A stretch of DNA of 64,000 bases, from the IMG/VR virus record IMGVR_UViG_3300021964_009400; one strand, written 5' to 3'. The notes under the pieces were generated by a model, which was given only the letters and a program-made list of their open reading frames with translations, was not told the DNA's origin and did not search any database. Positions 33,677 to 64,000 of the stretch are shown one piece after another. The translations under genes were made by a program, and so were the position numbers. The DNA is from a virus. Lineage: Duplodnaviria > Caudoviricetes. The stretch's first letter is position 1. Each line of letters begins with the position of its first letter.

Positions 33677-33818
33677 TATTTATTCATAGTAAAAGGATAA
33701 TTTCCATCGTTATATCAACAAGTTCTACTTAAAACCCGAAAGGGGCTCGTTCTAATCAAGTAGTTTATAATCAATCGTTTTATTTAATTAGTTACGGTAA
33801 TCTATAAAGGAGATTGCT
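33677..33818 (+). promoter_or_regulatory. Late-type motif plus a structured 5' leader of the exported-protein cluster
   Basis: TATTTATT at 33677; CTACTT/AAGTAG stem enclosing CCC-GAAA-GGG; GTAATCT/AGATTGC hairpin overlapping the SD AAAGGAG. Confidence 0.45.
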
Positions 33819-34325
33819 TTGAAATACACTATATTAAATGTATTTAAGATGTGTCTCATCTGGTTATTAATATTATTACCAGCTGAGGGAAATGCTGATT
33901 ACACCCAAGACCCAATCAAAGTTGGTAAAGTTACCAATGAAATTAGAATGGGTAAATTTGCAGGTAATCAGAATCTTGCATTTGGTGTAAAAAATATTCT
34001 CGAAGAACTTCTCTTAGATTTAGATTATGATTTATCAGACAGAGCAACCACACAAGTGAATGTTAGGTTGGTCTTTTTTGATATTAAAAATATAGGTAAA
34101 TCGATTGGGATTTATCATAATAAAGTATCCGCTACACAAATAATAGCTATTGGAGAGTTAGTTGTAGATGGTAAGGTTAAAAAGAAAACAACTCAAAAAG
34201 GTGTAAGTAAAGAAATTTCAAACTCTACATTAGTTGTTGCCTCTGATGGAACATTTAATCAACAAACTGCTTCAAATGCTTTGAAAAAAGTATGTGAACA
34301 AATTATTAAGGAATTATTAAAATGA
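33819..34325 (+). CDS. Exported protein, possibly CsgG/TolB-N-like fold
   Basis: TTG start with SD; signal peptide; the layout (GVKNILEELL...SNALKKVCEQII) parallels 37079. Confidence 0.5.
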   Translation: MKYTILNVFKMCLIWLLILLPAEGNADYTQDPIKVGKVTNEIRMGKFAGNQNLAFGVKNILEELLLDLDYDLSDRATTQVNVRLVFFDIKNIGKSIGIYHNKVSATQIIAIGELVVDGKVKKKTTQKGVSKEISNSTLVVASDGTFNQQTASNALKKVCEQIIKELLK

Positions 34326-36019
34326 AAAAGATTTTATTATTATTATTTAGTGTACTTTTTACAATGAGTACATATGCACAATCGACTTTAGGATATTCGA
34401 GAGTGAACACAGTAAGTCAAGTTGGAGATACTTTAGTTGTAAAATATCAGTACGGTAAAGGAACTGATATGCCAGATGCAACACTTTATCAATTTGATAT
34501 CCAATACAACAATAAGTTATTATCTCTTATTGAAAATGAGTGGATACCATCAGCAACTTCAGCACAAAAAGCAGTAAACACTTGGAATGGATATAAGTTT
34601 ACTATTGATTCTTCAAAAGACCAAACTGATTTTGATGGACAATATACGAGTTGGTTATCAGGCAATGCATCGTATGGAACAAACGCTGATTGGTCAGTAC
34701 AGAGAATAACTTATCAAGATGTAACCCCATTATCAAATGGTGATGAGTTTATGAAGATAAAGTACAAAATTAAAGATAAGGCAGGTACAAATTACTCAGA
34801 TTACAGTAACTTAATAAATGCTAACTGGGTAAACTATAAAGAATCAGATGGAACACTAATAAATTCATCTGGTACAACTGGTCTAAGTTTAACAGATATT
34901 GAAGGAGGTTCTGCAGAGAATGTAACACTTAACATAAATACAAACATTATTGATGATAACATCGGAGATGGTACTGATTTCACTTATAAGATTTATCTTA
35001 AATCAGATATAGGTAGTGGTAACCAACCAAATGAAGGAGCAAATGTTGTTGCTGAAGGTACATATGATGCCGCTGGTCAAGCAGTTGTAACTACTTTAAC
35101 AAATGATGTAGAATACTTTGTTTGGAATTGGGTTGATACTACTAAAGACTATTTAGATAATGTAGTAACCGTATCTGATTTAGCATTAGTATTTCAAGAA
35201 GCAATTGGTGGTGGTATTAATGGAGACCAAACTACATTTGATTATTATATTCAAACATTCTTAGGAAATGTATATCACGATGAGGCATTTGATGCAACAA
35301 TTAACTTTTCAGATTCATATGAGATACTTGCTTACCTACAAGGTGTAACAAGTACTAATACAACTTATATTAGTAAAAAGGGTGAATCTTATCAGACAGG
35401 TGGTAATAAATCAACATTTGGTACAATAGATTCAAATGGAAGTTATTTCGCTGGTATTGATGCAACATTCAAACCAACTGATTCAAATAAATCATTTAAC
35501 TTTGTACACGCTCTTATGGGTGATGTTAACTTCTCACACTCTTGGGAACCAGATACTAATGATACAACAGTTCCATCATCAGAACAAGCACAATCTTATT
35601 CAAACTCAACAAGAGTTTCAATGGCACCAGGACAAAAATATCAATCTGAAGAAGCAAATATTGATTTAGTATCTGAATTAAAAGATGGACAAGTAATATT
35701 CTCAATCAATTCAGATATTGATGAGATGATAGGAGCACAATTCAACATCACATATGATAACACAAGATTAGTATTGGATAATGTAATATTTGATACTGGT
35801 AATGAAATGACTAACTTCTCTAATCATTTAGAAGAAGATGGAAAAATAAACATTGGTTCGTTTGACCAAAACTTTAAGGCAGTTGTTAAAACAGGAACAC
35901 CTTATCAATTAATCTTTACACCAACAGTAACACTAAGTAATACATCGGGCTTGATTACTTTTAAAGTTAATGAAGGTGTAAAAGCAGACGGAACACAAAT
36001 TAAATTTATAATGGAATAA
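34322..36019 (+). CDS. Exported cohesin-like / dockerin-like / cohesin-like protein A
   Basis: Signal peptide; GDTLVV...QFDIQYN; VVTVSDL; MGDVNFSHS; GAQFNITYD...INIGSFD. Confidence 0.6.
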   Translation: MKKILLLLFSVLFTMSTYAQSTLGYSRVNTVSQVGDTLVVKYQYGKGTDMPDATLYQFDIQYNNKLLSLIENEWIPSATSAQKAVNTWNGYKFTIDSSKDQTDFDGQYTSWLSGNASYGTNADWSVQRITYQDVTPLSNGDEFMKIKYKIKDKAGTNYSDYSNLINANWVNYKESDGTLINSSGTTGLSLTDIEGGSAENVTLNINTNIIDDNIGDGTDFTYKIYLKSDIGSGNQPNEGANVVAEGTYDAAGQAVVTTLTNDVEYFVWNWVDTTKDYLDNVVTVSDLALVFQEAIGGGINGDQTTFDYYIQTFLGNVYHDEAFDATINFSDSYEILAYLQGVTSTNTTYISKKGESYQTGGNKSTFGTIDSNGSYFAGIDATFKPTDSNKSFNFVHALMGDVNFSHSWEPDTNDTTVPSSEQAQSYSNSTRVSMAPGQKYQSEEANIDLVSELKDGQVIFSINSDIDEMIGAQFNITYDNTRLVLDNVIFDTGNEMTNFSNHLEEDGKINIGSFDQNFKAVVKTGTPYQLIFTPTVTLSNTSGLITFKVNEGVKADGTQIKFIME

Positions 36020-36028
36020 GGAGAAACA

Positions 36029-36400
36029 ATGAAAAAATTAATAACACTTTTATTTTTAGTATTACTAACATCTTGTATGAAAGATGAATTTATCGAACCG
36101 ATTAATTTGGTTGAAGTACCTGAATCTTTAGAGATTTCTGAAGTACAAGGATTAAAACTTGAATCAGCAATCGTATCAGATGAAGTTAGAATGAATGTAA
36201 AATTACCATATAGTGGTATTTACAGAATTAAAATTAGAGATATATCTAAGAATTTAGTATCTCAAGAAAAAATCGAAGGTAATGAGGGAGATAATATATT
36301 AAAGGTATATGTTTCTTCATTAGGAAATAATGGGTATATAATTGAACTTACAGATGATGTTCATGATATGATAGGATTAACAACATTTGTAGTAAACTAA
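36029..36400 (+). CDS. Lipoprotein with a T9SS C-terminal-domain-like beta-sandwich (A)
   Basis: Lipobox LLTSC; LPYSGIYRIKIRDISKNLV...GDNILKVYVSSLGNNGYIIEL. Confidence 0.55.
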   Translation: MKKLITLLFLVLLTSCMKDEFIEPINLVEVPESLEISEVQGLKLESAIVSDEVRMNVKLPYSGIYRIKIRDISKNLVSQEKIEGNEGDNILKVYVSSLGNNGYIIELTDDVHDMIGLTTFVVN

Positions 36401-36409
36401 GGAGATAAA

Positions 36410-36715
36410 ATGGCAAAAAAGAAAAAGAAAGAAGAAGGATTCTTTTCACAAATAAAGAATCAAATCATTGCAGGAGTTGGTATTATACTAACTACTTTGG
36501 GTGGTATATTTATAGATGAAGTAAAATCATTTATAGGAATTGAAGATGAATCAGAACCACAAACTGAGATTGTACAAGAAAACAATCAATCAGTAAATGT
36601 AACTGGTCCTGAAATCATTATCAACATACCAGAACAAAAGACAGAAACTAAAACTATAATAAAAGAAGTTCCTGTTGAAAAGAAAAAAGAAAAAGAAGAA
36701 AAAATTGATTGGTAA
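36410..36715 (+). CDS. Single-TM hypothetical protein
   Basis: Basic N-terminus, IIAGVGIILTTLGGIFI TM segment, TAAGGAG SD. Confidence 0.6.
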   Translation: MAKKKKKEEGFFSQIKNQIIAGVGIILTTLGGIFIDEVKSFIGIEDESEPQTEIVQENNQSVNVTGPEIIINIPEQKTETKTIIKEVPVEKKKEKEEKIDW

Positions 36716-36773
36716 CAATCAAAAATAATAAAGATTATAAATTAAGTTTATTTTAAAAATAGGAGATTATATT

Positions 36774-36968
36774 ATGGAAGTATTAAAAGCAATTTTCACA
36801 GAAAAGGCATCAGACTACAAAGTAATGGATATTATTGTAAAAATATGGGTTGCAGGTTTATTATTCATGCTTGTATTGGGTTTTGTAGCCATTATGTATG
36901 GTATTATATCAGGTGAAGCAGATATTCAAAATGCAACTTTTGGTGTATTTGACACTTTAGGATATTAA
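36774..36968 (+). CDS. Small membrane protein
   Basis: One long hydrophobic segment; AGGAG SD. Confidence 0.55.
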   Translation: MEVLKAIFTEKASDYKVMDIIVKIWVAGLLFMLVLGFVAIMYGIISGEADIQNATFGVFDTLGY

Positions 36969-36977
36969 GTAAAAAAT

Positions 36978-37082
36978 ATGAAAAAATTAAAAGAATTATT
37001 AATTAAATTTGATGATTGGTTAACAAAAATTGGATATGAAATGTATCCTCAATTAACCAAACATATGAAAGATAAAAAATGA
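36978..37082 (+). CDS. 34-aa hypothetical protein (not in track)
   Basis: MKKLKELLIKFDDWLTKIGYEMYPQLTKHMKDKK; its stop overlaps the ATG at 37079. Confidence 0.35.
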   Translation: MKKLKELLIKFDDWLTKIGYEMYPQLTKHMKDKK

Positions 37083-37798
37083 AAAAACTTTTTTTATTAT
37101 TGGTATGTATATTTTTTACATTAAATACATTTGCACAAACAGTAGGTAAAATTAAAGCCGAAGAATATACCGCAGAATTTGAAAAGAAAAAATCAATTGA
37201 TGATGTTTCAGATTATTGGGGTGATATGATACCAGTTGCTTTACTCAATGTTGGTATATCTGATGATTTATATGAGATGTATCCAGAGTTAAGAGATGGT
37301 AGAGTAGGTTTAGGACTTACCAACATCGTAATTGAATACTTAGATTGGACAAACAGATTTGAATTCGTAGAAGAAAAATCTTCAATCAAAGATAGAATGA
37401 AATCACAATGGGTTGCTTCAAGAAAAGGTGTTTCGGAGAATCAAGTATATGGATTAGGTAAAATCAAGTTAGCAGAATATTTCGTTACAATAGAGATATA
37501 TGATTTCTCTGTTTCAGAGGATGAGGTTTTATCACTTAAAGATGGTTCTAAACAAACACAAACAACTCGTTTAGGTTTACAAGTTAGGTTTACTAATGCA
37601 GAGAATGGTACATATTTCGTAGGTTCCGGTCTTGGTACGGCGAATACAGTAAAGACTCAAGAGGGTTTGCTGGGGTTAGATTTGGATGAAATAAAGTTCA
37701 GACAATCAGCAATTGGAGTATCTACCAGAAAAGCATTGGAAACCGCTTCAGCAAGAATAGTAGCAAGAATGATTAGAAAAGGTATATTTGAAAACTAA
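37079..37798 (+). CDS. CsgG/HfaB-family-like exported protein
   Basis: Signal peptide; GLTNIVIEYL...RFEFVEEK; GKIKLAEYFVT; LGLQVRFTNAENG...GSGLG; RKALETA. Confidence 0.65.
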   Translation: MKKLFLLLVCIFFTLNTFAQTVGKIKAEEYTAEFEKKKSIDDVSDYWGDMIPVALLNVGISDDLYEMYPELRDGRVGLGLTNIVIEYLDWTNRFEFVEEKSSIKDRMKSQWVASRKGVSENQVYGLGKIKLAEYFVTIEIYDFSVSEDEVLSLKDGSKQTQTTRLGLQVRFTNAENGTYFVGSGLGTANTVKTQEGLLGLDLDEIKFRQSAIGVSTRKALETASARIVARMIRKGIFEN

Positions 37799-37801
37799 TG
37801 A

Positions 37802-39697
37802 ATGAGAAAGTTACTATCGATATTATTCTTTCTGTTTGTAGCTAATTTTAGTTACTCACAAACTTTCACACAGACATTTGTAGATAGATGTACTGGTGAA
37901 GTACAAGTTGTAACCGCAAACTTCACAAGTGGTTCTGCTATTGTATCGTTTTATAACGAGGCAAAATTATTTACCTATCAACAATACACAAATGGTGAAC
38001 TACATCAATGGTTAGTTCAAAAATATGCATGGTGGACAGCACTATCAGCATGCTCAACTGCACAAAACAATACAACAAACGCAACAAACACGGCGAATAA
38101 CGCAACAAACTCTACAAGTAACACAAGTAGTTCATCCTCGAGTGGTTCAAGTGGTAGTAGTGGAAGTGGTTCGAGTGGTAGTAGTGGAAGTGGTTCGAGT
38201 GGTTCAAGTGGAAGTGGTTCCGATTCAAGTGGAAGTGGTTCATCAGGTGGAGATAGTGGAAGTGGTTCCGATAGTGGTGGAAATGGCTCTGATTCAGGTG
38301 GTAATGGTTCCGATTCTGGTGGAGATAGTGGAAGTGGTTCCGATGGTGGTGGAGACTCTGGTGGAGATAGTGGGGGTTCTGATTCCGATGGTGGAAGTGG
38401 AGACTCTGGTGGAGATGGTTCCGATGGTGGTGATGATGGAAACTCTGGTGGAGATGGTGATGGTTCTGGTGGAGATGATGGTAGTGGAGATGGTGATGGT
38501 GATTCCGGCTCTGGTGATGGTGATGAAGGTAGTGGTGATGGTGATGGAGATGGTGATGGTGGTGATGGAGATGGTGATGGTGATGGTGGTGATGGTGATG
38601 GTGGTGATGGAGATGGTGATGGAGATGGTGATGGAGATGGCGATGGTGATGGAGATGGCGATGGTGATGGAGATGGTGATGGTGGTGATGGAGATGGTGA
38701 TGGAGATGGTGATGGAGATGGCGATGGTGATGGAGATGGCGATGGTGATGGAGATGGAGATGATTCAGATGGTGATGGTGATGATGACTCAGATGGTGAT
38801 GATGATAGTGATGATAGTGATGATTCCGATGAAGATTCTGATGAAGAAAGTGAAGAATCAGAGGAAGAAGAAAAAGAAGAAGAATCTGATGAAGAAGAAA
38901 AAGAAGAAGATGAAGAAGAAAGTGATGAGGAAGAGGAAGAAGAAAAAGAAGAAGATGAAGAGGAAGAAGAATCTGATGAAGATTCTGAAGAAGATGAAGA
39001 AGAGGAAGAAGAAAAAGAAAAAAAGTTTTTACCTATTCAATTAAAGGCTGATTTAATGTCAATGCAGGCATTAACATTAGAATATAATCAAATTCTTAAT
39101 ATAGGTGCATCTCAAACATCAATTTTTGGTGATAGAACAAATACAGCCAGTTTAATGATTTGGGATAACTTAAAACAAGCAAGTTTAGGATTAGGAACTT
39201 CAAAAGTAACATTAGATGATAACTACCAAGTATCTTGGGTAGATGGAATAAACCTATCTTATATGAGAAACTATAAAATGAATGCAATATCAACATCAGC
39301 CAGTAGAATGAAACCATTGGGTAAATGGGGAACTGTGGGTGTTGGTATAAATTATTCATATATGTTTGGTAAAGACCAACTTGGGGGAAGATTTCCTAAT
39401 ATGGTATCACTTGGATATAACTTACTTTATACAAATTCATTTCAATTAACAGATAGAATAATGTATGCACCAGCATTAATTGGTGCACAAAACCCTTTAA
39501 GTTATATGGAAGAAATGGCTGGGTTTGAAGCTATGGCAAGTACCTCAAAAGATTTTATTGGTATTTTTGCCAACTCATTTAATGTGCAATTAACACCAAG
39601 ATTTGGGTTCAATGTAGGTTGGACTCTTATTTATAGTAGTAACGAATTTGTTCCTTTGATGAACTCATTTATGATAGGAGCAAAGTTACCCTTTTAA
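37802..39697 (+). CDS. Exported protein with a Ser/Gly-Gly/Asp-Glu low-complexity stalk and a C-terminal beta-barrel-like domain
   Basis: Signal peptide; small Cys-pair domain; ~300-aa low-complexity tract; amphipathic strands ending GAKLPF. Confidence 0.7.
   Translation: MRKLLSILFFLFVANFSYSQTFTQTFVDRCTGEVQVVTANFTSGSAIVSFYNEAKLFTYQQYTNGELHQWLVQKYAWWTALSACSTAQNNTTNATNTANNATNSTSNTSSSSSSGSSGSSGSGSSGSSGSGSSGSSGSGSDSSGSGSSGGDSGSGSDSGGNGSDSGGNGSDSGGDSGSGSDGGGDSGGDSGGSDSDGGSGDSGGDGSDGGDDGNSGGDGDGSGGDDGSGDGDGDSGSGDGDEGSGDGDGDGDGGDGDGDGDGGDGDGGDGDGDGDGDGDGDGDGDGDGDGDGDGGDGDGDGDGDGDGDGDGDGDGDGDGDDSDGDGDDDSDGDDDSDDSDDSDEDSDEESEESEEEEKEEESDEEEKEEDEEESDEEEEEEKEEDEEEEESDEDSEEDEEEEEEKEKKFLPIQLKADLMSMQALTLEYNQILNIGASQTSIFGDRTNTASLMIWDNLKQASLGLGTSKVTLDDNYQVSWVDGINLSYMRNYKMNAISTSASRMKPLGKWGTVGVGINYSYMFGKDQLGGRFPNMVSLGYNLLYTNSFQLTDRIMYAPALIGAQNPLSYMEEMAGFEAMASTSKDFIGIFANSFNVQLTPRFGFNVGWTLIYSSNEFVPLMNSFMIGAKLPF
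38120..39022 (+). repeat. Coding tandem/low-complexity repeats
   Basis: AGTGGT/TCAAGT units, then (GGNGAT)n, then GAA-rich runs. Confidence 0.85.
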
Positions 39698-39709
39698 GGA
39701 GAAAAAAAT

Positions 39710-40246
39710 ATGAAAAAGATAGATTGGAAATTAATAGGAATGGGAGTATTTATAGGAACAACAATATGGTTGTTTACAAATCCCAAAATTCAAGAAGTAG
39801 AAAAAATTAAAGAAATAGAAGTTATTCAGACTGTTGTAGATAGTATCTATATAGAAAAACTTGTAGAGAAAAAAGTATTTGTACCAAAGTATATTACAAA
39901 AGAAGTAGAAAAACAAGTTGAAGTAATCAAAGAAGTAATCGTAGAAAAACCAGTTGAAGTAATTAAAACAGTTTATGTAGATAAACCTTATGAAACAATT
40001 GTTGATAGATATGTATTACCAGAACCTAAATGGTATTTAGGATTTGGATACAAGTTTGATAATAATAATTATTTTAGTGGAACTGATATAAAACTTTTAA
40101 GAAAATTTAAAAGTGATAAAATGTTTTCTTTAGATGTTGGTTTAAGAAATGATTTATTAGATGCTGAAACTGGTGTGAGTAAATTATATCCATATGTTGG
40201 AGCATCAATTTACTTCAGATTAGATAAACCAAATACTAATTTTTAA
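39710..40246 (+). CDS. Membrane-anchored protein with V/E/K repeats and C-terminal beta-strands (spanin-like or small outer-membrane protein)
   Basis: N-terminal TM; EVEKIKE...IVEKPVEVIKTVYVDKP; WYLGFGY...PYVGASIYFRL. Confidence 0.45.
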   Translation: MKKIDWKLIGMGVFIGTTIWLFTNPKIQEVEKIKEIEVIQTVVDSIYIEKLVEKKVFVPKYITKEVEKQVEVIKEVIVEKPVEVIKTVYVDKPYETIVDRYVLPEPKWYLGFGYKFDNNNYFSGTDIKLLRKFKSDKMFSLDVGLRNDLLDAETGVSKLYPYVGASIYFRLDKPNTNF

Positions 40247-42867
40247 TGAAAAAACTTCTTTACATACTATTACTTTTACCCACTTTAGTTTTAGGACAAT
40301 TAGGTGGACCAACTTCATCAGATGTTTCTGATGGTGAAGGTGCGGCAACTTTGGTATGGTTAGGAACTCCATCAAACTCAAGTGAATCGATTTCTAATAT
40401 CAGACCTGGTGATACAATCGTAATGGGGATTAAGATTCACAACTACAAAAATAATAACCCAATAACTTATGCTCACATTGATGTTCAGTATGATAAAAGA
40501 AAATACACAAAAATAAGTCATGTATTTAGTTCATCTGCAAGTGGAACTTCACACTTCATGGGTGATAATCTTTCAATAACTTGGACAAATAGTTATGACC
40601 ACTATGATATATGGAGTCAATGGTCTCGTGGTGGTAGTTATGGAAGTAATTCTAATTATTGGGTTGACCATTATCAAGCAACTGCAACTAATAATGATTT
40701 AGCATCTCTTGATTGGTATGTAAAAGTAAATCTATTAGTAAAAGATTATAATGAAGATTTAGATTATACAGATGGTATTATTGTAACAATGGGTCAAATG
40801 ACAGAAAGTAATGGTACTTCTTATGACCCAATGTATGCATATGAGTACCAAGATTTCTCTTATGCTCCACTACAAGCTGCACCAACATTCTCTTCAGCAG
40901 TTAGTGATGGACAAGATGCAGTAATTTACAAATCATTTAAAATAAACGATTATGATTCAAATGGTGGTCAATCAGAATATAATGCTCATCCTCAGAGTTC
41001 ATCTGATTTTGATGCTATGTTTGATTATGCAAATAAGAAAACTACTGAGTGGACACATTATGGTAGAGAAACTGCAACAAAGGCATTTACTTGGCCATGG
41101 AGTAATATCTTACCAAGACATGCTAATAGTAATTTCGGTTGGGAAATTGAAGCAAAATTTATAGCAGAAGAAACAGGTACATATACATTCCAAGTAAGTT
41201 CAGATGATAGAAGTGATTTCTTTTTTGATTCTAATATAGATGGAAACATGACAAACACTAACTTGGCTTATAATAATGGAGCAAGAACTGTTGATATCGA
41301 TTTAACTGCTGATAATGTTTATTCATTTAGAGTTAGATACGAACAAGGAGTTGGTGGTGCAAATTTATATTTGAAATGGAAAAGACCATCTGATTCTGAT
41401 TATCAATTTAATGAAGATGAAATATGGAGTGTTAGTCCAGCAAGTATTCCTCATAAATTAGATGTAGTTTATAATATCAATGATGATTTAGATAAAAGTA
41501 AATTCAGTTCAAAGTTAGAATATGATAATGGAACAGTAAATGGTACAAAAACTGAATCATTAGGAACGAATGGACAAGTATCATATAATGATGATGATGG
41601 TGGAGTTTATTCTACTCAAGTAAATACTGGTAATAAGAAAGCAAACACAACTGGTGGTTCGGTAGAGTGGATTGTAGTTTATGATTATGATAATACAAAC
41701 AATAGATACAGAGTTGGTATCGATAGTAGAGAATTTACAAACCAACAACCAGATTGGGATACGGTAACTAAATTAAAATTATTTGATTTATGGGATGGTT
41801 CAGTAACACCAAAGAGTGGTAACAACAATGCAGATACTCATTGGAACGAATATTGGATTTATACAGATACAGAACTTGATTGGAGTAATTCAACATTTTC
41901 ATCTTATATTAGAGATGCAAGTGGTTTTTATGGATTAAAAGCAGAAGTTGAATTTGTAGATGTTACAAGTTATGTAAATCACGATTTATTATTAGAAGTT
42001 GATGGAACTTATTATTCAGAACAATATTCAAATGTAGTTACAATACAAGATGTTGCTTTAGCATTTAGTGAACTTACGAGTGGTGGTAGTATAGGACCTA
42101 ACCCAAGTAGTGGTGGTACATTTACAACTGGTATTGAATATGTAGTTTCTGATGTTAATGAAGATGGTAAATTTGATTTTGTAGATACACAATTAATGTT
42201 AGAACATTTATTTGGTGATACAGACCCATTTGAAGGAAATGTATTTGATGATGTTGTAATGTTATTTGAAAGTGATTATAATAGTTGGAGTACAACTGAT
42301 TGGTCAACAGGTGTTCCGAGAGGTAAAACTAAAACTTATGTACCAAGTACATCATTCAGTCAAAGAACACAAAGTAACACTTACAATATTGCATTTTTAG
42401 GTGATGTAAACTTTTCTCATTCTGAAGAACCTACAAACTTAACAACATCAGCACAAGAAATGACAATTGCATATTCATCTACTCGTGGTGTAACACAACA
42501 AAGTAATCATATAAATTTTGATATTATAAGAGAAGGTAATCTAATTAGTTTAGAACTTTCAATTCCTTCAAATCAGAAAAATATAATTGGTTCACAGTTT
42601 AAAATTTATTTTGATAATGATAAAGTTGATTACAAAGAAACAGAATTTTCAAATGAATCTATTCCAAATTTTGCAACTGATAGAACTAATTATGTAAACA
42701 TTGGTTCATTTAGTTCAGATGGTTCTAAAAATTTAAATGGAGGTATAACTTATAAATTAAATTTCGAACTTAAATCTGATTTACAATCAACATTAGGATT
42801 ATTTGGAATTAGATTTTGGGAATTGGTAGATAAAGATAATATAAAAGTAGAGCTTAAAATAAAATGA
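40246..42867 (+). CDS. Exported cohesin-like / PA14 / dockerin-like / cohesin-like protein B
   Basis: Signal peptide; GDTIVMGI...DVQYD; PA14 motif ETGTYTFQVSSDD...YSFRVRYEQGVGGANLYLKW; VVTIQDV; DVNEDGKFDFVD; LGDVNFSHS; GSQFKIYFD...VNIGSF. Confidence 0.7.
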   Translation: MKKLLYILLLLPTLVLGQLGGPTSSDVSDGEGAATLVWLGTPSNSSESISNIRPGDTIVMGIKIHNYKNNNPITYAHIDVQYDKRKYTKISHVFSSSASGTSHFMGDNLSITWTNSYDHYDIWSQWSRGGSYGSNSNYWVDHYQATATNNDLASLDWYVKVNLLVKDYNEDLDYTDGIIVTMGQMTESNGTSYDPMYAYEYQDFSYAPLQAAPTFSSAVSDGQDAVIYKSFKINDYDSNGGQSEYNAHPQSSSDFDAMFDYANKKTTEWTHYGRETATKAFTWPWSNILPRHANSNFGWEIEAKFIAEETGTYTFQVSSDDRSDFFFDSNIDGNMTNTNLAYNNGARTVDIDLTADNVYSFRVRYEQGVGGANLYLKWKRPSDSDYQFNEDEIWSVSPASIPHKLDVVYNINDDLDKSKFSSKLEYDNGTVNGTKTESLGTNGQVSYNDDDGGVYSTQVNTGNKKANTTGGSVEWIVVYDYDNTNNRYRVGIDSREFTNQQPDWDTVTKLKLFDLWDGSVTPKSGNNNADTHWNEYWIYTDTELDWSNSTFSSYIRDASGFYGLKAEVEFVDVTSYVNHDLLLEVDGTYYSEQYSNVVTIQDVALAFSELTSGGSIGPNPSSGGTFTTGIEYVVSDVNEDGKFDFVDTQLMLEHLFGDTDPFEGNVFDDVVMLFESDYNSWSTTDWSTGVPRGKTKTYVPSTSFSQRTQSNTYNIAFLGDVNFSHSEEPTNLTTSAQEMTIAYSSTRGVTQQSNHINFDIIREGNLISLELSIPSNQKNIIGSQFKIYFDNDKVDYKETEFSNESIPNFATDRTNYVNIGSFSSDGSKNLNGGITYKLNFELKSDLQSTLGLFGIRFWELVDKDNIKVELKIK

Positions 42868-43208
42868 AAAAATTTTTAATATTAATAGTATTGTTATTAC
42901 TTTCTTGTCAAAAAGATGAGTTGATTGAAGTAGAAATTCCTCAATCATATGAACTTATTTTTGATGAAGTAGAATCAACAATACTTGATGGCCAAGATAT
43001 TTCTTTTGAAGTATCTGTTGAAGGAAAATATTTATTATTAATTACAGATATTGAGAAACAATCTGTAATTTCAAAAGAATCATTTTTGTTACCCATTGGT
43101 ATTGTAACTCGTAAAATCTACACAAAATCTTTACCAAAGAAAAAACTACAACTAACTTTAGAAACTTCAACAGAAGTTCTAAAATCTACTTATATTGTTA
43201 TAGAATAA
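42864..43208 (+). CDS. Lipoprotein with a T9SS-CTD-like domain (B), paralog of 36029
   Basis: Lipobox LLLSC; FEVSVEGKYLLLITD...YTKSLP. Confidence 0.55.
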   Translation: MKKFLILIVLLLLSCQKDELIEVEIPQSYELIFDEVESTILDGQDISFEVSVEGKYLLLITDIEKQSVISKESFLLPIGIVTRKIYTKSLPKKKLQLTLETSTEVLKSTYIVIE

Positions 43209-43632: not shown

Positions 43633-43642
43633 ACTTACCTTA

Positions 43643-43650
43643 TATTTATA
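43643..43650 (+). promoter_or_regulatory. Putative late promoter motif TATTTATA
   Basis: Intergenic, 5 nt before an ATG. Confidence 0.5.
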
Positions 43651-43655
43651 GTAGT

Positions 43656-44300
43656 ATGTTTATATTCACAGAAGAAAATATCGGTAATATTAAGAATGCT
43701 ATCTATACAACAGATGGTATAAAGGATAAACACGCTGAAAGAATTGAGTATGTTAAAACAAAAGGTTTATTCAAAGATTTAGATTTATCAAAATATTTTC
43801 ACAAAAATCCACCAAAAAATACATCAATGAAAACTCTACAAGAGTTATATTGGTTAAGAGATTTACCAGAAGATAAAGAGTTTGTTGAAAAACACGATGA
43901 TGTTAAAGGTGTATTTAAAGAGGTATGTGAAGAACATGGGATAGAGTTTCCAAAAGAATTAGTTAAAGAACTAATTAAATCATGTTCAATGTTGGAACTA
44001 AAATATCATTTCAATAGACCAAGACCTTACCAACTTGCAGATTATTATAATATTAAGTTGGGTGAGAATATACTTGAAAGTATGAAAACCCCTTCTTACC
44101 CTTCTGGTCATGCTGCACAAGGTATTCTAATAGGTAAAGTTTTACAAACAAAATTACCAATCAATACTAATGCATTTATTGAAGCAGGAGAACGAATATC
44201 TTATTCTCGAAACATTGGTGGAGCACATTATCCTTCGGATTCAGAAATGGGTAAAAACATTGGTCATCGAATGTACGAATATATAATTCACAAGATTTAA
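43656..44300 (+). CDS. PAP2 / vanadium haloperoxidase superfamily phosphatase
   Basis: KYHFNRPRP, PSYPSGH, SRNIGGAHYPSD. Confidence 0.88.
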   Translation: MFIFTEENIGNIKNAIYTTDGIKDKHAERIEYVKTKGLFKDLDLSKYFHKNPPKNTSMKTLQELYWLRDLPEDKEFVEKHDDVKGVFKEVCEEHGIEFPKELVKELIKSCSMLELKYHFNRPRPYQLADYYNIKLGENILESMKTPSYPSGHAAQGILIGKVLQTKLPINTNAFIEAGERISYSRNIGGAHYPSDSEMGKNIGHRMYEYIIHKI

Positions 44301-44330
44301 TACTTATATAAAGAAACATTTATATTTATA
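44301..44330 (+). promoter_or_regulatory. Two putative late promoter motifs
   Basis: TACTTATA at 44301 and TATTTATA at 44323; the second is 6 nt before an ATG. Confidence 0.5.
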
Positions 44331-44336
44331 TAGTAT

Positions 44337-45365
44337 ATGGGATGGAGTGATAAATATAAAAAAAGTATAAATTGTAATAATCCCAAAGGTTTTTCACAAA
44401 AAGCACATTGTGCAGGAAGAAAGATTAGGAAAGAAAACATGAAATTATCAGAGTTAAAAAATATAATCAAAGATTTAATTCAAGAAAGAAGTATCAACGC
44501 TATTAGTAAAGCACAAGAAAAAAACGCCACTAGAATAAAAGATACTTTAGAACTTTACAAAAAGGCAAAAGGTGGAAATGATGCTTATAAAAAGAAAAAC
44601 ATTATTAAAGTTTTATATAAACTTAATGATGAAAAGAAAAAATTAGAAAAAGAAATGGATGATAAGATATCATCTTTATATAAAAATGCTGATTACAAAG
44701 GACCGATTGATGAATCAATCGAACTTGGTAAGGTTTATCCTAATCCTTATGCAACTGCATTTAAACCAGAATCTCAAATCAAAGAAGAAGAAAACTCTGT
44801 AAATGAAATGCAGGTTGTAAATAAGAAAACAGGTAAAGATATTACCAGACATGTATTAGATTTGTTAAAGGGTAAAATTGATAAGAAAAAGTTTGAAAAA
44901 CTTACTGGTCTAAAAAAAGAATCAGTAAACGAAAGAATAAATCCAAAGTTCTACGATGCAAGAGTTCAATATATAGACCCTAGAAGTAAGAAAAAGTTTG
45001 TTGGTGATGTAGTTAGATATGATAATGGTGAATACAAAGTTAACTTAGGTAAAGATGGTAGATTTGAAAAATATATCTTGGCAAAAGAAAAAGATTTGAA
45101 AATTGTATCTAAATCTACAAAAAGAACATTTGAATCAGTAAATGAAGAGGCTGATGACCATGAAGTAGGTATGGGATTATCATCTTTAAAATCATCAGTT
45201 CGTTCCGCTAAAATCATTTATGATAATATAAAAAAAAGAAACATTGAAGAATTAGATGGTTGGGTACAAGAAAAATTAACTCTTGCATCTGATTACCTTA
45301 AAAATGTTGCTGATTACATGGAAGATTTAGACGAATACGATAAAGATGGAACAAGTAATAACTGA
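44337..45365 (+). CDS. Putative virion internal polyprotein with repeated SVNE motifs
   Basis: WSDKYKKSINCNNPKGFSQKAHC module; NSVNE, ESVNE, ESVNE; C-terminal WVQEKLTLASDYL module. Confidence 0.55.
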   Translation: MGWSDKYKKSINCNNPKGFSQKAHCAGRKIRKENMKLSELKNIIKDLIQERSINAISKAQEKNATRIKDTLELYKKAKGGNDAYKKKNIIKVLYKLNDEKKKLEKEMDDKISSLYKNADYKGPIDESIELGKVYPNPYATAFKPESQIKEEENSVNEMQVVNKKTGKDITRHVLDLLKGKIDKKKFEKLTGLKKESVNERINPKFYDARVQYIDPRSKKKFVGDVVRYDNGEYKVNLGKDGRFEKYILAKEKDLKIVSKSTKRTFESVNEEADDHEVGMGLSSLKSSVRSAKIIYDNIKKRNIEELDGWVQEKLTLASDYLKNVADYMEDLDEYDKDGTSNN

Positions 45366-47173: not shown

Positions 47174-47180
47174 AATCCTA

Positions 47181-47188
47181 TATTTATA
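47181..47188 (+). promoter_or_regulatory. Putative late promoter motif TATTTATA
   Basis: 3 nt before the ATG at 47192. Confidence 0.45.
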
Positions 47189-47191
47189 GAT

Positions 47192-48353: not shown

Positions 48354-48362
48354 ATTTCTTTA

Positions 48363-48370
48363 TATTTATA
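48363..48370 (+). promoter_or_regulatory. Putative late promoter motif TATTTATA
   Basis: Intergenic, before 48391. Confidence 0.5.
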
Positions 48371-48390
48371 TAGGTAAAAGGAATATATAT

Positions 48391-49959
48391 ATGCCAGCAA
48401 AATCTAAACAACAACAAAAATTCATGGGTATGGTTCACGCTTTAAATAAAGGTGATATTAAACCATCTGATGTATCTAAATCAGTAAAGGATGTTGCTAA
48501 AAACATTAAAAAATCTGATGCAGAAGATTTTGCTTCTACAAAACATAGTGGTTTACCAAGAAAGGTAAAAGAACAAATCCTTAATGCATTTAAAGAATAC
48601 GCAAACAAAATGAGTGGTAATAAACTTGGTGGTGGTGGTTCACACGATTATGCACCACAAAAAGGTTTAAGAGATGATGATGGATATGAAGATGAATCAA
48701 TAAACGAAGTTGGAGTAAATGTTTGGTATATTTACAAAAAAGCTAACAAAAATAAGAATAAGTTTTTTAATATGTTATCTGATTTTCGTAAAAAACATAG
48801 TGATACTGCATGGATAAAGATGTTAAATTATGCTCTTGAGGATTTTAATGAAAATCCAAAGAAGTATAAAACAATTGATGATAAACAAAATATATTATTT
48901 AAAAACCTTCAAAACAAGAAAAAAGTATATGAAGGTATGTTCTCTACAATAGACCAAATCAAACAAGATTCTAAGGATGTTAGAGATTTCGTAAAGAATG
49001 TATTCAAAGATAGAGATTTTGTAAAAATGAAAAATGATAAAGAATTTATCAAGTATCTAAAATCTATTTACGAATCAAAAGGTGTTCCTCAAAATTATAT
49101 GCAAGGTAGAACTTCGGATTACCACACAGCATTAAGAGGAAAGAATAGAGATTATAGTGGTGGAACTAACTTTAAGAAAAACAATCATGGTCATCCTGAT
49201 ATAGAAAAAGATGATGAGGACCAGGAAACAAATCAGTTAAGTGTACAACAAACAAAATTAAAAGAAGAAATGGGTAAACTATCTTCATCAGAAAGAATTG
49301 AGTTATATAAACTTTACTCAAAGGCAATGAAAGCAATGCCTGGTTCACCAAATCAAAAGAAACTTAAAGTAATTATCAATAAACTTAGAAAGAAAGCAGA
49401 TTTAAAACCTCTACCGATAAATGAAGCAAAATTAGACCACCATAGAATTAGTGGTAATAGTATTGAACTTCTCGTAAGACACAATAGAGAAAAATTAGCT
49501 ATAAGATTTAAAGATAAAAGAATTTTAGATAAAATGGGATTTGATTGGTCAAAACCAAAAAACATAGAAAAATTATTATCATTGAAAAAGTTTCCAAAAG
49601 GAATGTCAGTCAGTAAAAGTTTTCATGAATATGGACAAAGATTAGATTTATCTTATTTAGAAGATGAAGAAGCAAGATTAGATGGAACTCCAAAACCAAA
49701 AGATGCAATTGATAGAGATATAGATGAGTATTCAGGTGGTTCTTATGAATATACAAAAGGAGACCAATATGGTCAAAACTCTGTAAATGAAGTAGGTGTA
49801 TTTCCTGTAACTAATTACATTAAAGGAATTATTCCACAAGGAAGATTAGATACAAACACACCAGAAGCAAAAAGAAAATCTGAAAAGTTAGTTAAGGATT
49901 TAAGAAATACACTTAACAAATTTTGGAAACAACACGATATACCATTTAAAATAAGATAA
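48391..49959 (+). CDS. Putative virion internal polyprotein
   Basis: MPAKSKQQQKFMGMV module; ESINE, PINE, NSVNE and related xxE motifs separate segments. Confidence 0.55.
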   Translation: MPAKSKQQQKFMGMVHALNKGDIKPSDVSKSVKDVAKNIKKSDAEDFASTKHSGLPRKVKEQILNAFKEYANKMSGNKLGGGGSHDYAPQKGLRDDDGYEDESINEVGVNVWYIYKKANKNKNKFFNMLSDFRKKHSDTAWIKMLNYALEDFNENPKKYKTIDDKQNILFKNLQNKKKVYEGMFSTIDQIKQDSKDVRDFVKNVFKDRDFVKMKNDKEFIKYLKSIYESKGVPQNYMQGRTSDYHTALRGKNRDYSGGTNFKKNNHGHPDIEKDDEDQETNQLSVQQTKLKEEMGKLSSSERIELYKLYSKAMKAMPGSPNQKKLKVIINKLRKKADLKPLPINEAKLDHHRISGNSIELLVRHNREKLAIRFKDKRILDKMGFDWSKPKNIEKLLSLKKFPKGMSVSKSFHEYGQRLDLSYLEDEEARLDGTPKPKDAIDRDIDEYSGGSYEYTKGDQYGQNSVNEVGVFPVTNYIKGIIPQGRLDTNTPEAKRKSEKLVKDLRNTLNKFWKQHDIPFKIR

Positions 49960-49969
49960 GGATAATATT

Positions 49970-50576: not shown

Positions 50577-50626
50577 ATATATATAAGTAATAAAGGTTAC
50601 ATCTCAAATTAATGGGAGGTAATATA

Positions 50627-50956: not shown

Positions 50957-50975
50957 AGTTATAAAATTAAAAAAT

Positions 50976-58003: not shown

Positions 58004-58041
58004 TATAACAAATAAATATATATTAATATAAAACTAAAATT

Positions 58042-61714: not shown

Positions 61715-61715
61715 T

Positions 61716-62288: not shown

Positions 62289-62289
62289 A

Positions 62290-63054: not shown

Positions 63055-63083
63055 ATAATAAAACATAAAAGAAAATAATCTAA

Positions 63084-63091
63084 TATTTATA
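63084..63091 (+). promoter_or_regulatory. Putative late promoter motif TATTTATA
   Basis: Intergenic, before 63125. Confidence 0.45.
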
Positions 63092-63124
63092 TAAAGTAGA
63101 AATACTATAAAAAAAAGAAACACT

Positions 63125-63391
63125 ATGAATACAATTTTAATTATTTTAGCAATTCTTGCAATTGGAGCAGGAGTTTATTATTTCGGATTCTACACAAAAG
63201 GTAAAATCAACGATAGAGATGGGGATTTTATTCCTGATGAAGTTGAAGATGCAGTAGAAGATGTAAAGAAAGTTGCGAAAACTGTAAAAAGAAGAGCAAA
63301 AAGAGTAAAAGAAGAACTTGGAGATGTTGTGAAAGCAGCAAAAGGAACACCAAGAAAAGGTAGAAGAAAGTCTACTAAAAAAACTAAATAA
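63125..63391 (+). CDS. Membrane-anchored small protein with a DxDxD Ca-loop and basic tail
   Basis: N-terminal TM, DRDGDFIPDE, Lys/Arg-rich C-terminus. Confidence 0.6.
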   Translation: MNTILIILAILAIGAGVYYFGFYTKGKINDRDGDFIPDEVEDAVEDVKKVAKTVKRRAKRVKEELGDVVKAAKGTPRKGRRKSTKKTK

Positions 63392-63400
63392 GGAGTACAA

Positions 63401-64000
63401 TTGAGTTTAAAATCACTAATTACTGAAACAGTAATATTAGATTCTATGTTTGATATTGAATCAGAAATGATGTCAATCAAAGAATCTATATTAGAACATT
63501 TAGTATTAGAGGGTGTTGATGACCCTGGTATACTAAAATGTGTTTTCATGGCAGGTGGACCTGGAAGTGGAAAATCTTTCACTGCCATGGAAATCTTCGG
63601 TATTGATAAGAAACTCAAATCTTCATTTGCAGCATCAGGTCTTAAATCAGTCAATTCAGATTCAGCATTTGAAGCTGGGTTAAAAAAGAATGGTATTGAC
63701 CCAAGAGATTTGGCAAGAATAGAAAAAGAAGAACCAGAACTTTGGGATAAAATAACAAAAACACCCGATGGTATCAGAAATAAAGCAAAACAACTAACTG
63801 CTAAACAAAAGAAGTTTTACGAAGCAGGAAGATTAGGAATGATTATCGATGGTACTGGTCATGTTTATTCTAAGATTGCAAAGAATAAAAAACACGCAGA
63901 AAGTTTAGGTTACGATACTTATATGGTATTTGTAAATACTTCACTCGAAGTTGCTAAAGAAAGAAACAAAAACAGAGATAGAGTTTTATCAGATGAATTA
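63401..64000 (+). CDS. P-loop kinase (Zeta-toxin/AAA_33-like), 3' partial (not in track)
   Basis: TAAGGAG SD and TTG start; MAGGPGSGKS, IIDGTG, VFVNTSLEVAKERNKNRDR; runs off the window. Confidence 0.8.
   Translation, partial: MSLKSLITETVILDSMFDIESEMMSIKESILEHLVLEGVDDPGILKCVFMAGGPGSGKSFTAMEIFGIDKKLKSSFAASGLKSVNSDSAFEAGLKKNGIDPRDLARIEKEEPELWDKITKTPDGIRNKAKQLTAKQKKFYEAGRLGMIIDGTGHVYSKIAKNKKHAESLGYDTYMVFVNTSLEVAKERNKNRDRVLSDEL

What the first reader, a model, noticed from the sequence alone, without database searches (positions are those of the whole stretch)
33806..63403. Strong Shine-Dalgarno sites only on late/exported genes in a phage of an SD-avoiding host
Seen: AAAGGAG (33806), TAAGGAG (36017, 36398, 39695, 63389), AGGAG (36761) and GGAGGT (50615) lie 5-8 nt before starts; weaker AAGGA sites precede 48391 and 49970. 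Genes behind Bacteroidetes promoters (3809, 12122, 13960, 16197, 46070, 57642, 58042) have only A/T-rich leaders. Known: Bacteroidetes rarely use SD pairing because bS21, bS18 and bS6 sequester the anti-SD, and some large phages encode bS21. Inference: late in infection the phage switches ribosomes to SD mode, predicting a phage bS21 variant or equivalent elsewhere in the genome. My tally was by eye, not exhaustive.
Basis: partly seen in the sequence, partly recalled or inferred. Interest (0 to 1): 0.68.

Follow-up and report, generated by a model that had tools for sequence, protein, structure and literature searches.

The report
Shine-Dalgarno sites on late phage operons
A large uncultured T4-like phage, probably infecting Flavobacteria-type bacteria whose ribosomes normally ignore Shine-Dalgarno sites, puts such sites only on genes in its late-type operons. 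Its close relatives carry a phage copy of ribosomal protein bS21 that lacks the tyrosine hiding the ribosome's Shine-Dalgarno reader, which suggests, but does not prove, that the phage re-tunes host ribosomes.

Summary
They are the only 7 of 74 AGGAG/GGAGG sites on the + strand in that position (expected 0.67, P=5e-6). Five sit in one operon of exported proteins (Fisher 4e-5).

The window holds no virion genes, so "late" rests on promoter type. Every gene with a Shine-Dalgarno (SD) site lies downstream of a TATATTTATA-type motif. None of 24 genes behind the seven TTTG..TATATTTG host-type promoters has an SD core (14/56 vs 0/24, P=0.008).

In the closest complete relative (276 kb) the same motif precedes tail sheath, tail tube and baseplate genes. 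There, 21/41 motif-proximal genes have an SD core against 1/27 early-type genes.

No bS21 gene is in the window and the whole genome is not held. Eight of 16 related records encode bS21, including all 3 that are at least 90% complete. Six of these have Arg or Lys where Flavobacterium johnsoniae has Tyr54.

Across 143 phage bS21 loci, Arg54 loci have SD cores on 39% of neighbouring genes (mock 3.6%). Tyr54 loci have 6.3% (mock 6.2%). Exceptions exist, the host is inferred, and no experiment exists.

This scan noted the same idea earlier in this genome and in at least 22 others. I found no paper describing it. Verdict: observation confirmed, interpretation partly supported, a new variant of a known kind.

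The parts
33806..33812 (+). AAAGGAG Shine-Dalgarno site, 6 nt before TTG start 33819 (first gene of the exported-protein operon)
   Evidence: -9.1 kcal/mol. AGGAG plus the TTG start are conserved in 9 relatives.
36017..36023 (+). TAAGGAG (TAA is the stop of 34322-36019), 5 nt before ATG 36029 (lipoprotein, LLTSC lipobox)
   Evidence: -8.6. AGGAG or AAGGAG at the orthologous start in L005, L006, L012, L013.
36398..36404 (+). TAAGGAG (TAA is the stop of 36029-36400), 5 nt before ATG 36410 (membrane protein)
   Evidence: -8.2. An SD is present at the ortholog in L002, L003, L005, L007, L008, L013.
36761..36765 (+). AGGAG, 8 nt before ATG 36774 (64-aa membrane protein)
   Evidence: -7.3. AGGAG at the ortholog in L003, L004, L012, L013.
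39695..39701 (+). TAAGGAG (TAA is the stop of 37802-39697), 8 nt before ATG 39710 (membrane-anchored protein)
   Evidence: -8.2. TAAGGAG, TAAGGAGG or TAGGAG in L005, L007, L008, L012, L013, L016.
50615..50620 (+). GGAGGT, 6 nt before ATG 50627 (109-aa protein with a C-terminal membrane segment, holin-like by position next to the endolysin)
   Evidence: -11.6. The G001 ortholog has AAGGAGG.
63389..63395 (+). TAAGGAG (TAA is the stop of 63125-63391), 5 nt before TTG 63401 (P-loop ATPase/kinase-like, runs off the window)
   Evidence: -7.7. The G001 ortholog has AAGGAG with an ATG start.
48377..48382 (+). Weaker AAAGGA, 8 nt before ATG 48391, directly behind an L-type motif
   Evidence: -6.2
49958..49962 (+). 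Weaker AAGGA, 7 nt before ATG 49970 (N-acetylmuramoyl-L-alanine amidase endolysin)
   Evidence: phrog_1794 amidase, 8e-16; -6.3
33676..33684 (+). L-type (late-like) promoter motif ATATTTATT in the 173-nt gap before the exported-protein operon
   Evidence: ATATTTAT is kept 110-175 nt upstream of the orthologous first gene in 11 relatives while the flanks diverge. RNA-library contigs of relatives begin at 33704-33717.
48362..48370 (+). L-type motif ATATTTATA heading 48391 and the endolysin 49970
63083..63091 (+). L-type motif ATATTTATA heading 63125 and the SD-led 63401
3767..3777 (+). E-type (host sigma-A-like) promoter core TCGTATATTTG. Six further copies lie at 12088, 13929, 16167, 46023, 57623 and 57993. 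All are followed by A/T-rich leaders without an SD.
   Evidence: 0 of 24 genes downstream of E motifs have an SD core.
33819..43208 (+). Operon of about 10 exported proteins (SPI signal peptides ending in Gln at +1, two lipoproteins, membrane anchors, one PA14 domain). It holds 5 of the 7 strong SDs.
37079..37798 (+). CsgG-like exported protein inside that operon (no SD of its own)

Best explanation
The sites are genuine, selected ribosome-binding sites. They mark a second expression class of this phage.

Early genes are read from host-type promoters (TTTG-N19-TATATTTG) and have A/T-rich, SD-less leaders, as Bacteroidia genes do. Operons behind a phage-specific single-element motif (TATATTTATA, late-type) carry AAGGAG-type sites on part of their genes. 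In this window those are the exported-protein operon, the lysis cassette and the 63125-63401 pair. In complete relatives the same class includes the abundant virion genes.

My best guess for how they are read: late in infection a phage-encoded bS21 replaces host bS21 on the 30S platform. The phage protein has Arg in place of the anti-SD-stacking Tyr54 and no other aromatic residue nearby. The 3' tail of 16S rRNA is then no longer held down, so SD-led late messages (including two with weak TTG starts) gain while SD-less host messages lose.

Shown here: the sites, their placement, their conservation, the link to promoter class, the presence of Tyr54-less bS21 in relatives, and the correlation across 143 loci.
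Inferred: the host phylum, the timing, incorporation of phage bS21 into ribosomes, and release of the anti-SD.
For: Placement beyond chance: 7 observed against 0.67 expected, P = 5e-6. Spacers are 5-8 nt.

Conservation: SDs recur at orthologous starts, with motif turnover (TAAGGAG, TAGGAG, AAAGGAG) and a conserved TTG start, in the closer relatives.

Promoter class by operon assignment:
- window: L 14/56 against E 0/24, P = 0.008
- G001: L 52/173 against E 13/151, P = 1.4e-6
Promoter-proximal genes in G001: 21/41 against 1/27, P = 3.6e-5.

G001 SD-led genes include tail sheath (phrog_23, 8e-72), tail tube, baseplate wedge and head-tail adaptor.

The L motif is conserved upstream of the exported operon in the window and 11 relatives. 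RNA-library contigs start just downstream of it.

bS21 (PF01165) was found in 8 of 16 related records, including 3 of 3 that are at least 90% complete. Arg or Lys aligns with F. johnsoniae Tyr54 in 6 of the 8.

Across 143 phage bS21 loci, Arg54 loci have an SD core on 38.8% of neighbouring genes (mock 3.6%). Tyr54 loci have 6.3% (mock 6.2%).

Published basis: Tyr54 stacks on A1534 (PMC7797042). Y54A or loss of the C-terminus raises translation of strong-SD reporters 1.7- to 4-fold and lowers initiation on SD-less mRNA (PMC9976891).

Host evidence:
- All 5 clear SPI signal peptides expose Gln at +1, the Bacteroidetes Q-rule (PMC5837995).
- The homologous operon is in Flavobacterium phage immuto.
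- The three best genome hits are in MAGs (metagenome-assembled genomes) labelled Bacteroidota.
Against: - No bS21 gene is in the window, and the genome is not available to me.
- G003 (Arg54) is depleted of SDs (ratio 0.56) and G002 (Arg54) is only weakly enriched (1.53). Both have a Trp four residues later, which may or may not explain this.
- At the level of sequence clusters there are only four Arg54 lineages, three of them SD-rich, so the correlation rests on few independent events.
- Arg or Lys at position 54 is normal outside Bacteroidota, so a different host would explain the same correlation.
- The closest cultured relative by DNA polymerase (53.5% identity) is filed as a Microcystis phage.
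- The E-type promoter also fits sigma-70 (TTGGAT-N17-TATATT).
- Most L-operon genes have no SD (42 of 56 in the window).
- Six of the seven strong SDs pair at only -7 to -9 kcal/mol (GGAGGT at 50615: -11.6). In F. johnsoniae AGGA gave no response and only AGGAGGU or rpsU (below -13) did (PMC9976891).
Confidence: 0.5

Rival explanations
1. Ordinary SD use. The host reads Shine-Dalgarno sites normally or partly (for example a cyanobacterium or another non-Bacteroidia host). The phage simply puts SDs on genes that need high output, and its Arg/Lys54 bS21 just matches the host type.
For: The closest cultured DNA-polymerase relative, Mel-JY01, is recorded on Microcystis. It has a Lys/Arg54 bS21 and SD cores on 25% of genes along the whole genome. 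G005 has SD cores on 43% of genes throughout. The E promoter also fits sigma-70 spacing. Arg/Lys54 is the non-Bacteroidota state (PMC7797042).
Against: In the window and G001, SDs are absent from E-class genes (0/24; 13/151). All clear SPI signal peptides follow the Bacteroidetes-specific Q-rule (PMC5837995). The same exported operon occurs in a phage isolated on Flavobacterium. The top genome hits are in Bacteroidota MAGs. The bS21 of G003 is most similar to the F. johnsoniae protein among solved ribosomes.
Confidence: 0.2
2. The SDs are read without any phage bS21. They would be read by the natural minority of host 30S subunits that lack bS21, or by ribosomes stripped of bS21 during infection (for example by proteolysis or arrested host rpsU synthesis). 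The SD would then be a sensor of the infected state rather than a partner of a phage protein.
For: F. johnsoniae has a working pool of bS21-free ribosomes that prefer SD-led mRNA (PMC9976891). L016's contig has a Tyr54 bS21 yet keeps TAAGGAG at the 39710 ortholog. No bS21 was found in the window or in the four closest, fragmentary relatives.
Against: Across 143 loci SD use tracks the residue at position 54 of the phage protein, not merely the presence of a phage bS21. Phages with no bS21 (immuto) or a Tyr54 bS21 show no SD enrichment. The host pool responds to much stronger SDs than these.
Confidence: 0.17
3. The purine-rich motifs serve translational coupling or re-initiation inside tightly packed operons, or mRNA stability or pausing. 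The temporal-class link would then be secondary.
For: Four of the seven sites overlap the upstream stop codon (TAAGGAG) and sit inside polycistronic units.
Against: Dozens of equally tight junctions in the window (ATGA overlaps, 1-10 nt gaps) have no SD. Three sites, and many in G001, stand after long gaps or directly behind an L motif. Coupling through an SD still needs a free anti-SD.
Confidence: 0.08
4. Chance or an artefact of gene calling.
For: Starts were called by simple rules, without a trained gene finder.
Against: P = 5e-6 for placement. The sites are conserved in relatives. SD cores peak at -14..-3 at 2.2 times background in the window and 3.1 times in G001.
Confidence: 0.01

Closest known systems
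bS21-encoding freshwater Bacteroidetes myoviruses (Chen et al. 2022, ISME Commun, PMC9723584)
   Same: These are large T4-like phages of Bacteroidota with a bS21 gene among the head genes. It is expressed with late structural genes and was proposed to enter host ribosomes and favour phage mRNA.
   Different: Those phage proteins all keep an aromatic residue at position 54 (54 of 61 Tyr) and were argued to keep the anti-SD blocked. No SD analysis was made. Here the relatives' bS21 has Arg54, and late operons carry SDs. In my 143 loci the Tyr54 type shows no SD enrichment.
Anti-SD sequestration and rpsU autoregulation in Flavobacterium johnsoniae (Jha et al. 2021, PMC7797042; McNutt et al. 2023, PMC9976891)
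   Same: The logic is the same: ribosomes whose bS21 does not hold the 16S 3' tail translate SD-led mRNA better and SD-less mRNA worse. SD acts as a regulatory element in an otherwise SD-free system.
   Different: There, one host gene (rpsU) has an extended SD (below -13 kcal/mol) and the ribosomes lack bS21. Here, many phage genes have 5-7 nt SDs (-7 to -12), and the proposed agent is a substituted bS21, not an absent one.
T4-type temporal control by promoter class (early sigma-70 promoters, late TATAAATA promoters read with gp55)
   Same: Two promoter classes. The late one is a single A/T-rich element with no -35 and stands before virion and lysis genes.
   Different: The motif is TATATTTATA, not TATAAATA. 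T4 does not change the ribosome's mode of initiation between classes. Homologs of gp55 and gp33 were not searched for here.
bS21 paralogs that select mRNAs in Francisella tularensis (PMC9578407)
   Same: Exchange of one small 30S protein changes which leaders are translated.
   Different: That is a bacterial paralog set. Selection depends on leader features other than release of a sequestered anti-SD.

Membership tests
Shine-Dalgarno ribosome-binding site | At least 5 nt complementary to the CCUCC core of the 16S 3' tail | tested here: met
   AAAGGAG, four TAAGGAG, AGGAG and GGAGGT. Duplex energies with CACCUCCUUUCU are -7.3 to -11.6 kcal/mol. The host's own 16S tail is not known and was assumed canonical.
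Shine-Dalgarno ribosome-binding site | Spacer of about 4-10 nt to a start codon, more often than chance | tested here: met
   Spacers are 5-8 nt. 7 of 74 sites are so placed against 0.67 expected, P = 5e-6. The positional peak is 2.2 times background.
Shine-Dalgarno ribosome-binding site | Kept at orthologous starts in relatives | tested here: met
   Kept in the closer relatives (L002-L008, L012, L013, G001), with motif variants. Lost in L010, L014, L017, L018, L024, L025 and immuto.
Shine-Dalgarno ribosome-binding site | Shown to pair with the ribosome and drive initiation | not testable with these tools
   Needs reporters, toeprinting or ribosome profiling.
Phage-encoded bS21 system (Chen et al. 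2022 type) | bS21 (PF01165) gene in the phage genome | tested here: inconclusive
   None in the window (tblastn), and the genome is not held. Present in 8 of 16 related records, including 3 of 3 that are at least 90% complete. Earlier scan notes say this genome has two copies. I did not check that.
Phage-encoded bS21 system (Chen et al. 2022 type) | Aromatic residue at position 54, as in host bS21 | tested here: not met
   Arg in G001, G002, G003, G005 and G013, and Lys/Arg in Mel-JY01. Tyr only in G012 and G014.
Phage-encoded bS21 system (Chen et al. 2022 type) | bS21 lies among and is expressed with late structural genes | tested here: inconclusive
   In G001 it lies among SD-led genes that include a head-tail adaptor hit, behind an L-like motif TATATACTTATATAA. 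No expression data.
rpsU-type SD autoregulation (F. johnsoniae) | Extended SD with pairing energy below -13 kcal/mol on the bS21 gene itself | tested here: not met
   The window's SDs are -7 to -12 and sit on other genes. Among relatives only the G005-type bS21 gene has TAAGGAGG. The G001 type has AGGAGA abutting the ATG.
Bacteroidota sigma-A promoter (-33 TTTG, -7 TAnnTTTG) | TTTG, then about 19 nt, then TAnnTTTG upstream of the gene | tested here: inconclusive
   The consensus is ATTTGGatat-N-TTTTCGTATATTT(G/A). Four of 7 window copies end in G and three in A. The same sequence fits sigma-70 TTGGAT-N17-TATATT.
T4-type late promoter | Single A/T-rich -10-like element (TATAAATA), no -35, before virion genes | tested here: inconclusive
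   TATATTTATA has no conserved upstream element and precedes sheath, tube and tail/baseplate genes in G001. The sequence differs from TATAAATA at two positions. gp55 and gp33 were not searched for.

The most novel reading that the evidence does not exclude
A virus-encoded specialised ribosome that changes the mode of initiation with time. The phage replaces host bS21 with a Tyr54-less copy. This unlocks the sequestered anti-SD of Bacteroidia ribosomes, so that SD-led late messages (virion, lysis and an exported CsgG-like secretion operon) are translated preferentially while SD-less host and early messages are disfavoured.
Probability: 0.42. Interest if true: 0.86.

Novelty: new variant of a known kind. 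Interest (0 to 1): 0.67.

Why it matters
Why phages so often carry bS21 is an open question. The only published proposal for Bacteroidota phages assumed that the phage protein behaves like the host's.

A Tyr54-less phage bS21 paired with SD sites on late operons gives a concrete mechanism: unlocking the anti-SD. It can be tested directly with the existing F. johnsoniae genetics, reporters, in-vitro initiation assays and cryo-EM.

It would be a clear natural case of a virus changing which mRNAs a ribosome selects by swapping one ribosomal protein.

It also matters for annotation. Gene finders tuned to the SD-free host will misplace starts, such as the two TTG starts here, in these phages.

Tried and rejected
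- **Source genome.** The whole genome is not held. An exact 57-mer of the window is absent from viral contigs. It occurs only on four metagenome contigs of 2-6 kb, so the phage's own bS21 could not be examined.
- **Second bS21 paralog.**
- **bS21 search.** PF01165 gave no hit in the four closest but fragmentary relatives (24-39% complete) or in Flavobacterium phage immuto.
- **Exported operon annotation.** Pfam and PHROGs gave nothing except PA14.
- **Promoter-proximal test in the window.** It has no power: E 0/7, L 1/8. A strict TAnnTTTG scan found only 5 genes.
- **"SDs mark exported proteins".** This holds in the window (P = 0.002) but not genome-wide in G001 (P = 0.18), G002 or G003. I rejected it as the general rule.
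- **"The operon came from an SD-using donor".** Rejected. The same operon, with Q-rule signal peptides, exists without SDs in immuto, G003 and others.
- **RNA data.** RNA-library data were contigs only. They show that relatives' transcripts or DNA cover the operon and where contigs start. They show no level or timing.
- **Bacterial homologs.** A genome-contig scan with the single 37079 protein found none. The alignment found 5 MAG contigs. These are probably binned phage DNA and therefore weak host evidence.
- **Literature.** No paper on Mel-JY01 and none linking Tyr54-less phage bS21 to SDs.

Full report
**What the window is.** All long ORFs lie on the + strand and G+C is about 29%. PHROGs places a T4-type replication set at the left end: family-B DNA polymerase at 2-2392 (4e-187), clamp loader and exonuclease. 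Then come DNA methyltransferases, a long block of sugar-nucleotide and glycosyltransferase genes (17465-33645), an amidase endolysin (49970), 2OG-Fe oxygenases, HNH and kinase-like genes. No virion protein is present. The only DNA-level match among cultured phages is Flavobacterium phage vB_FspM_immuto, at 65% over 670 nt inside gene 37079. The closest cultured DNA polymerase is that of 'Microcystis phage' Mel-JY01, at 53.5%. The source genome is not held.

**The observation.** Pairing energies with the 3' tail CACCUCCUUUCU are -7.3 to -11.6 kcal/mol, against a median of -1.0 for the other 79 starts. The + strand has 74 AGGAG/GGAGG sites. The seven listed are exactly those that end 4-10 nt before a called start, against 0.67 expected (P = 5e-6). 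Five of the 8 starts between 33819 and 39710 have one, against 2 of 75 elsewhere (P = 3.8e-5). In the four TAAGGAG sites the TAA is the upstream stop codon. Two of the seven genes (33819, 63401) start with TTG.

**What the SD-led genes are.** Region 33819-43208 encodes about ten exported proteins. They include classical signal peptides, two lipoproteins, membrane anchors and a PA14 domain. Otherwise there is no Pfam or PHROG match. Gene 50627 is a small membrane protein beside the endolysin. Gene 63401 is a P-loop protein. Strong SDs go with hydrophobic N-termini in the window (P = 0.002). They do not in the complete relative G001 (P = 0.18), so 'exported' is a property of one operon and not the rule.

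**Two promoter classes.** I call this class E. It is followed by 20-40 nt of A/T-rich leader. A second motif, TATATTTATA (class L), has no conserved upstream element. In the window it stands in intergenic DNA before:
- the exported operon (33676)
- 43656, 44337 and 47192
- 48391 plus the endolysin (48362)
- 57021
- 63125-63401 (63083)

I assigned each gene to the nearest upstream intergenic motif. In the window 14 of 56 L-assigned genes and 0 of 24 E-assigned genes have a 4-nt SD core (P = 0.008). All strong sites are L-assigned. The motif before the exported operon is kept in the window and 11 relatives although the flanks diverge. RNA-library contigs of close relatives begin 20-35 nt downstream of it and run through the first four genes. 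That is only a weak hint, because contigs cannot prove a transcript start.

**Relatives.** The 37079 protein retrieved 30 IMG/VR contigs at 94-53% identity. In the closer ones the SDs recur at the same starts with sequence turnover, and the TTG start of the first gene is kept. In more distant ones (L010, L014, L017, L018, L024, L025) and in immuto the operon is present without SDs. I fetched three relatives that are at least 90% complete. SD cores at -14..-3 relative to background are:
- G001 (276 kb): 3.1 times
- the window: 2.2 times
- G002: 1.5 times
- G003: 0.56 times
- immuto: 0.35 times

In G001 the SD-led genes include tail sheath, tail tube, baseplate wedge and head-tail adaptor. They also include the orthologs of all four SD groups of the window. 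Promoter-proximal L genes have an SD core in 21 of 41 cases, E genes in 1 of 27 (P = 3.6e-5). By operon assignment the figures are 52/173 against 13/151 (P = 1.4e-6).

**The predicted bS21.** The window has none. PF01165 was found above Pfam's cut-off in 8 of 16 related records, including all 3 that are at least 90% complete. It was absent from immuto and from the four closest, fragmentary contigs. Aligned to the F. johnsoniae protein of PDB 7JIL, the position of Tyr54 is:
- Arg in G001, G002, G003, G005 and G013
- Lys/Arg in Mel-JY01
- Tyr in G012 and G014

Tyr54 stacks on A1534, where the 16S tail turns into the bS21/bS18/bS6 pocket (PMC7797042). Y54A or loss of the C-terminus raises strong-SD reporters 1.7- to 4-fold and lowers initiation on SD-less mRNA (PMC9976891).

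**Correlation across phage bS21 loci.** I collected 143 phage bS21 loci with up to 10 kb on each side. At position 54, 80 have Tyr, 55 Arg, and 3 each Phe, Glu and His (one Tyr is the F. johnsoniae reference, leaving 79 Tyr loci). Genes beside Arg54 copies have an SD core in 38.8% of cases (mock window 3.6%). Genes beside Tyr54 copies have one in 6.3% (mock 6.2%). Grouped into clusters at 70% identity, three of four Arg54 clusters are SD-rich (0.38-0.47). Nine of the ten clusters with the canonical KAxY signature are at or below 0.10. The tenth, a single locus (L174), is at 0.29 against a mock rate of 0.19.

**Host.** This matters because Arg or Lys at position 54 is normal outside Bacteroidota.

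Evidence for a Bacteroidota host:
- All five clear SPI signal peptides of the window (8063, 34322, 37079, 37802, 40246) expose Gln at +1, as do those of immuto and G001-G003. This is the Bacteroidetes-specific Q-rule (PMC5837995).
- The exported operon is shared with a phage isolated on Flavobacterium.
- The three best genome hits to the 37079 family are in MAGs (metagenome-assembled genomes) labelled Flavobacterium, Bacteroidetes and Sediminibacterium.
- E-class genes are SD-free.

Evidence against, or neutral:
- The Mel-JY01 record names Microcystis as host.
- The E promoter also reads as sigma-70 TTGGAT-N17-TATATT.
- G005 and Mel-JY01 carry SDs along their whole length, at 43% and 25% of genes.

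**Weak points of the mechanism.**
- G003 (Arg54) avoids SDs and G002 hardly uses them. Both have Trp four residues after position 54, while G001, G005 and Mel-JY01 have no aromatic residue there. That is suggestive, but it rests on five genomes.
- Most L-operon genes lack an SD.
- Most of the sites are shorter than the leaders shown to respond in F. johnsoniae, where AGGA did nothing and AGGAGGU did (PMC9976891).
- Incorporation of a phage bS21 into Bacteroidia ribosomes has never been shown.

**Earlier notes of this scan.** The scan recorded the same idea for this genome and for at least 22 others. One note says this genome carries an Arg-type bS21 about 142 kb beyond the window. Another says it carries a second copy with Trp54 about 25 kb beyond. 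I could not check either, and I do not count them as evidence.

**Literature.** Chen et al. 2022 proposed that phage bS21 substitutes into host ribosomes, but reported an aromatic residue at position 54 in all 61 proteins and did not look at SDs. McNutt et al. 2023 speculated on phage bS21 exchange. The two 2026 NAR papers on the F. johnsoniae anti-SD do not mention phages. Full-text searches found no paper joining a Tyr54-less phage bS21 to SD-led late genes.

**Verdict.** The sites mark late-type operons. The predicted bS21 variant exists in relatives and tracks SD use. The causal step is unproven, and a host that reads SDs remains the main rival. I rate it a new variant of a known kind (phage bS21 and specialised ribosomes), with confidence of about 0.5 in the full mechanism.

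Noticed in passing
window 37079-37798: This 239-aa exported protein matches no Pfam or PHROG family but folds like the curli secretion channel CsgG. AF2 on an 18-sequence alignment gave pLDDT 72. Foldseek hit 4uv2/6l7c at E 2e-6 with TM 0.45-0.50. Atlas feature hits to CsgG/HfaB clusters scored 0.93-0.94. It has an SPI signal peptide, not a lipobox.
   Followed up: partly
window 33819-43208; L001 8152-14626: A conserved operon of about ten exported proteins (CsgG-like, PA14-domain protein, two lipoproteins, small membrane proteins). It is shared by more than 30 phage contigs and by cultured Flavobacterium phage immuto, so it looks like a phage-encoded cell-envelope or secretion apparatus made late. 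Its function is unknown.
   Followed up: partly
window 37802-39697: A 631-aa exported protein with about 300 residues of Ser/Gly, then Asp/Gly, then Glu-rich low complexity (local GC skew 0.48), followed by a beta-rich C-terminal domain. It gave spurious DNA hits to filamentous-phage coat genes.
   Followed up: no
window 43642-43658, 44322-44339, 47180-47194: The L-type motif TATATTTATA ends only 3-6 nt before the ATG of 43656, 44337 and 47192. These would be leaderless or nearly leaderless mRNAs, a third way of initiating in the same phage.
   Followed up: no
window 33819 and 63401: Two SD-led genes use TTG starts. The TTG of 33819 is kept with AGGAG in nine relatives, while SD-less relatives use ATG. 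The G001 ortholog of 63401 uses ATG.
   Followed up: partly
L033 (G002), L032 (G003) against L035 (G001), L034 (G005), L221 (Mel-JY01): The two Arg54 phage bS21 proteins from genomes that use few or no SDs have Trp four residues after position 54. The three from SD-using genomes have no aromatic residue there.
   Followed up: partly
L034 1456-1470 (G005): The G005-type phage bS21 gene has its own strong leader, TAATAAGGAGGTTGT-ATG. The G001-type genes all have AGGAGA abutting the ATG (spacer 1 nt).
   Followed up: no
L226-L235 (PP395634.1, Mel-JY01): The only cultured relative with a Tyr54-less bS21 has SD cores on 25% of its genes and a 7.6-fold positional peak. It is filed as a Microcystis phage. 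Only one of its seven hydrophobic N-termini flagged by a crude filter (about two look like real SPI signal peptides) follows the Q-rule, so its true host is worth checking.
   Followed up: partly
window 50961-51746: RNA-library contigs of relatives join 50961 to 51746, skipping a methyltransferase-like gene. This is a presence/absence polymorphism among strains.
   Followed up: no
window 4559-6208 and 6208-7836: Two adjacent paralogous genes of about 545 aa share a C-terminal methyltransferase-like domain (phrog_12517/498). They follow a 448-aa DNA methyltransferase.
   Followed up: no
window 17465-33645: A 16-kb block of glycosyltransferases, nucleotide-sugar epimerase, UDP-glucose dehydrogenase, aminotransferase and heptose-type nucleotidyltransferase genes. 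It has a single L-type motif at its head (17087) and no SDs.
   Followed up: no
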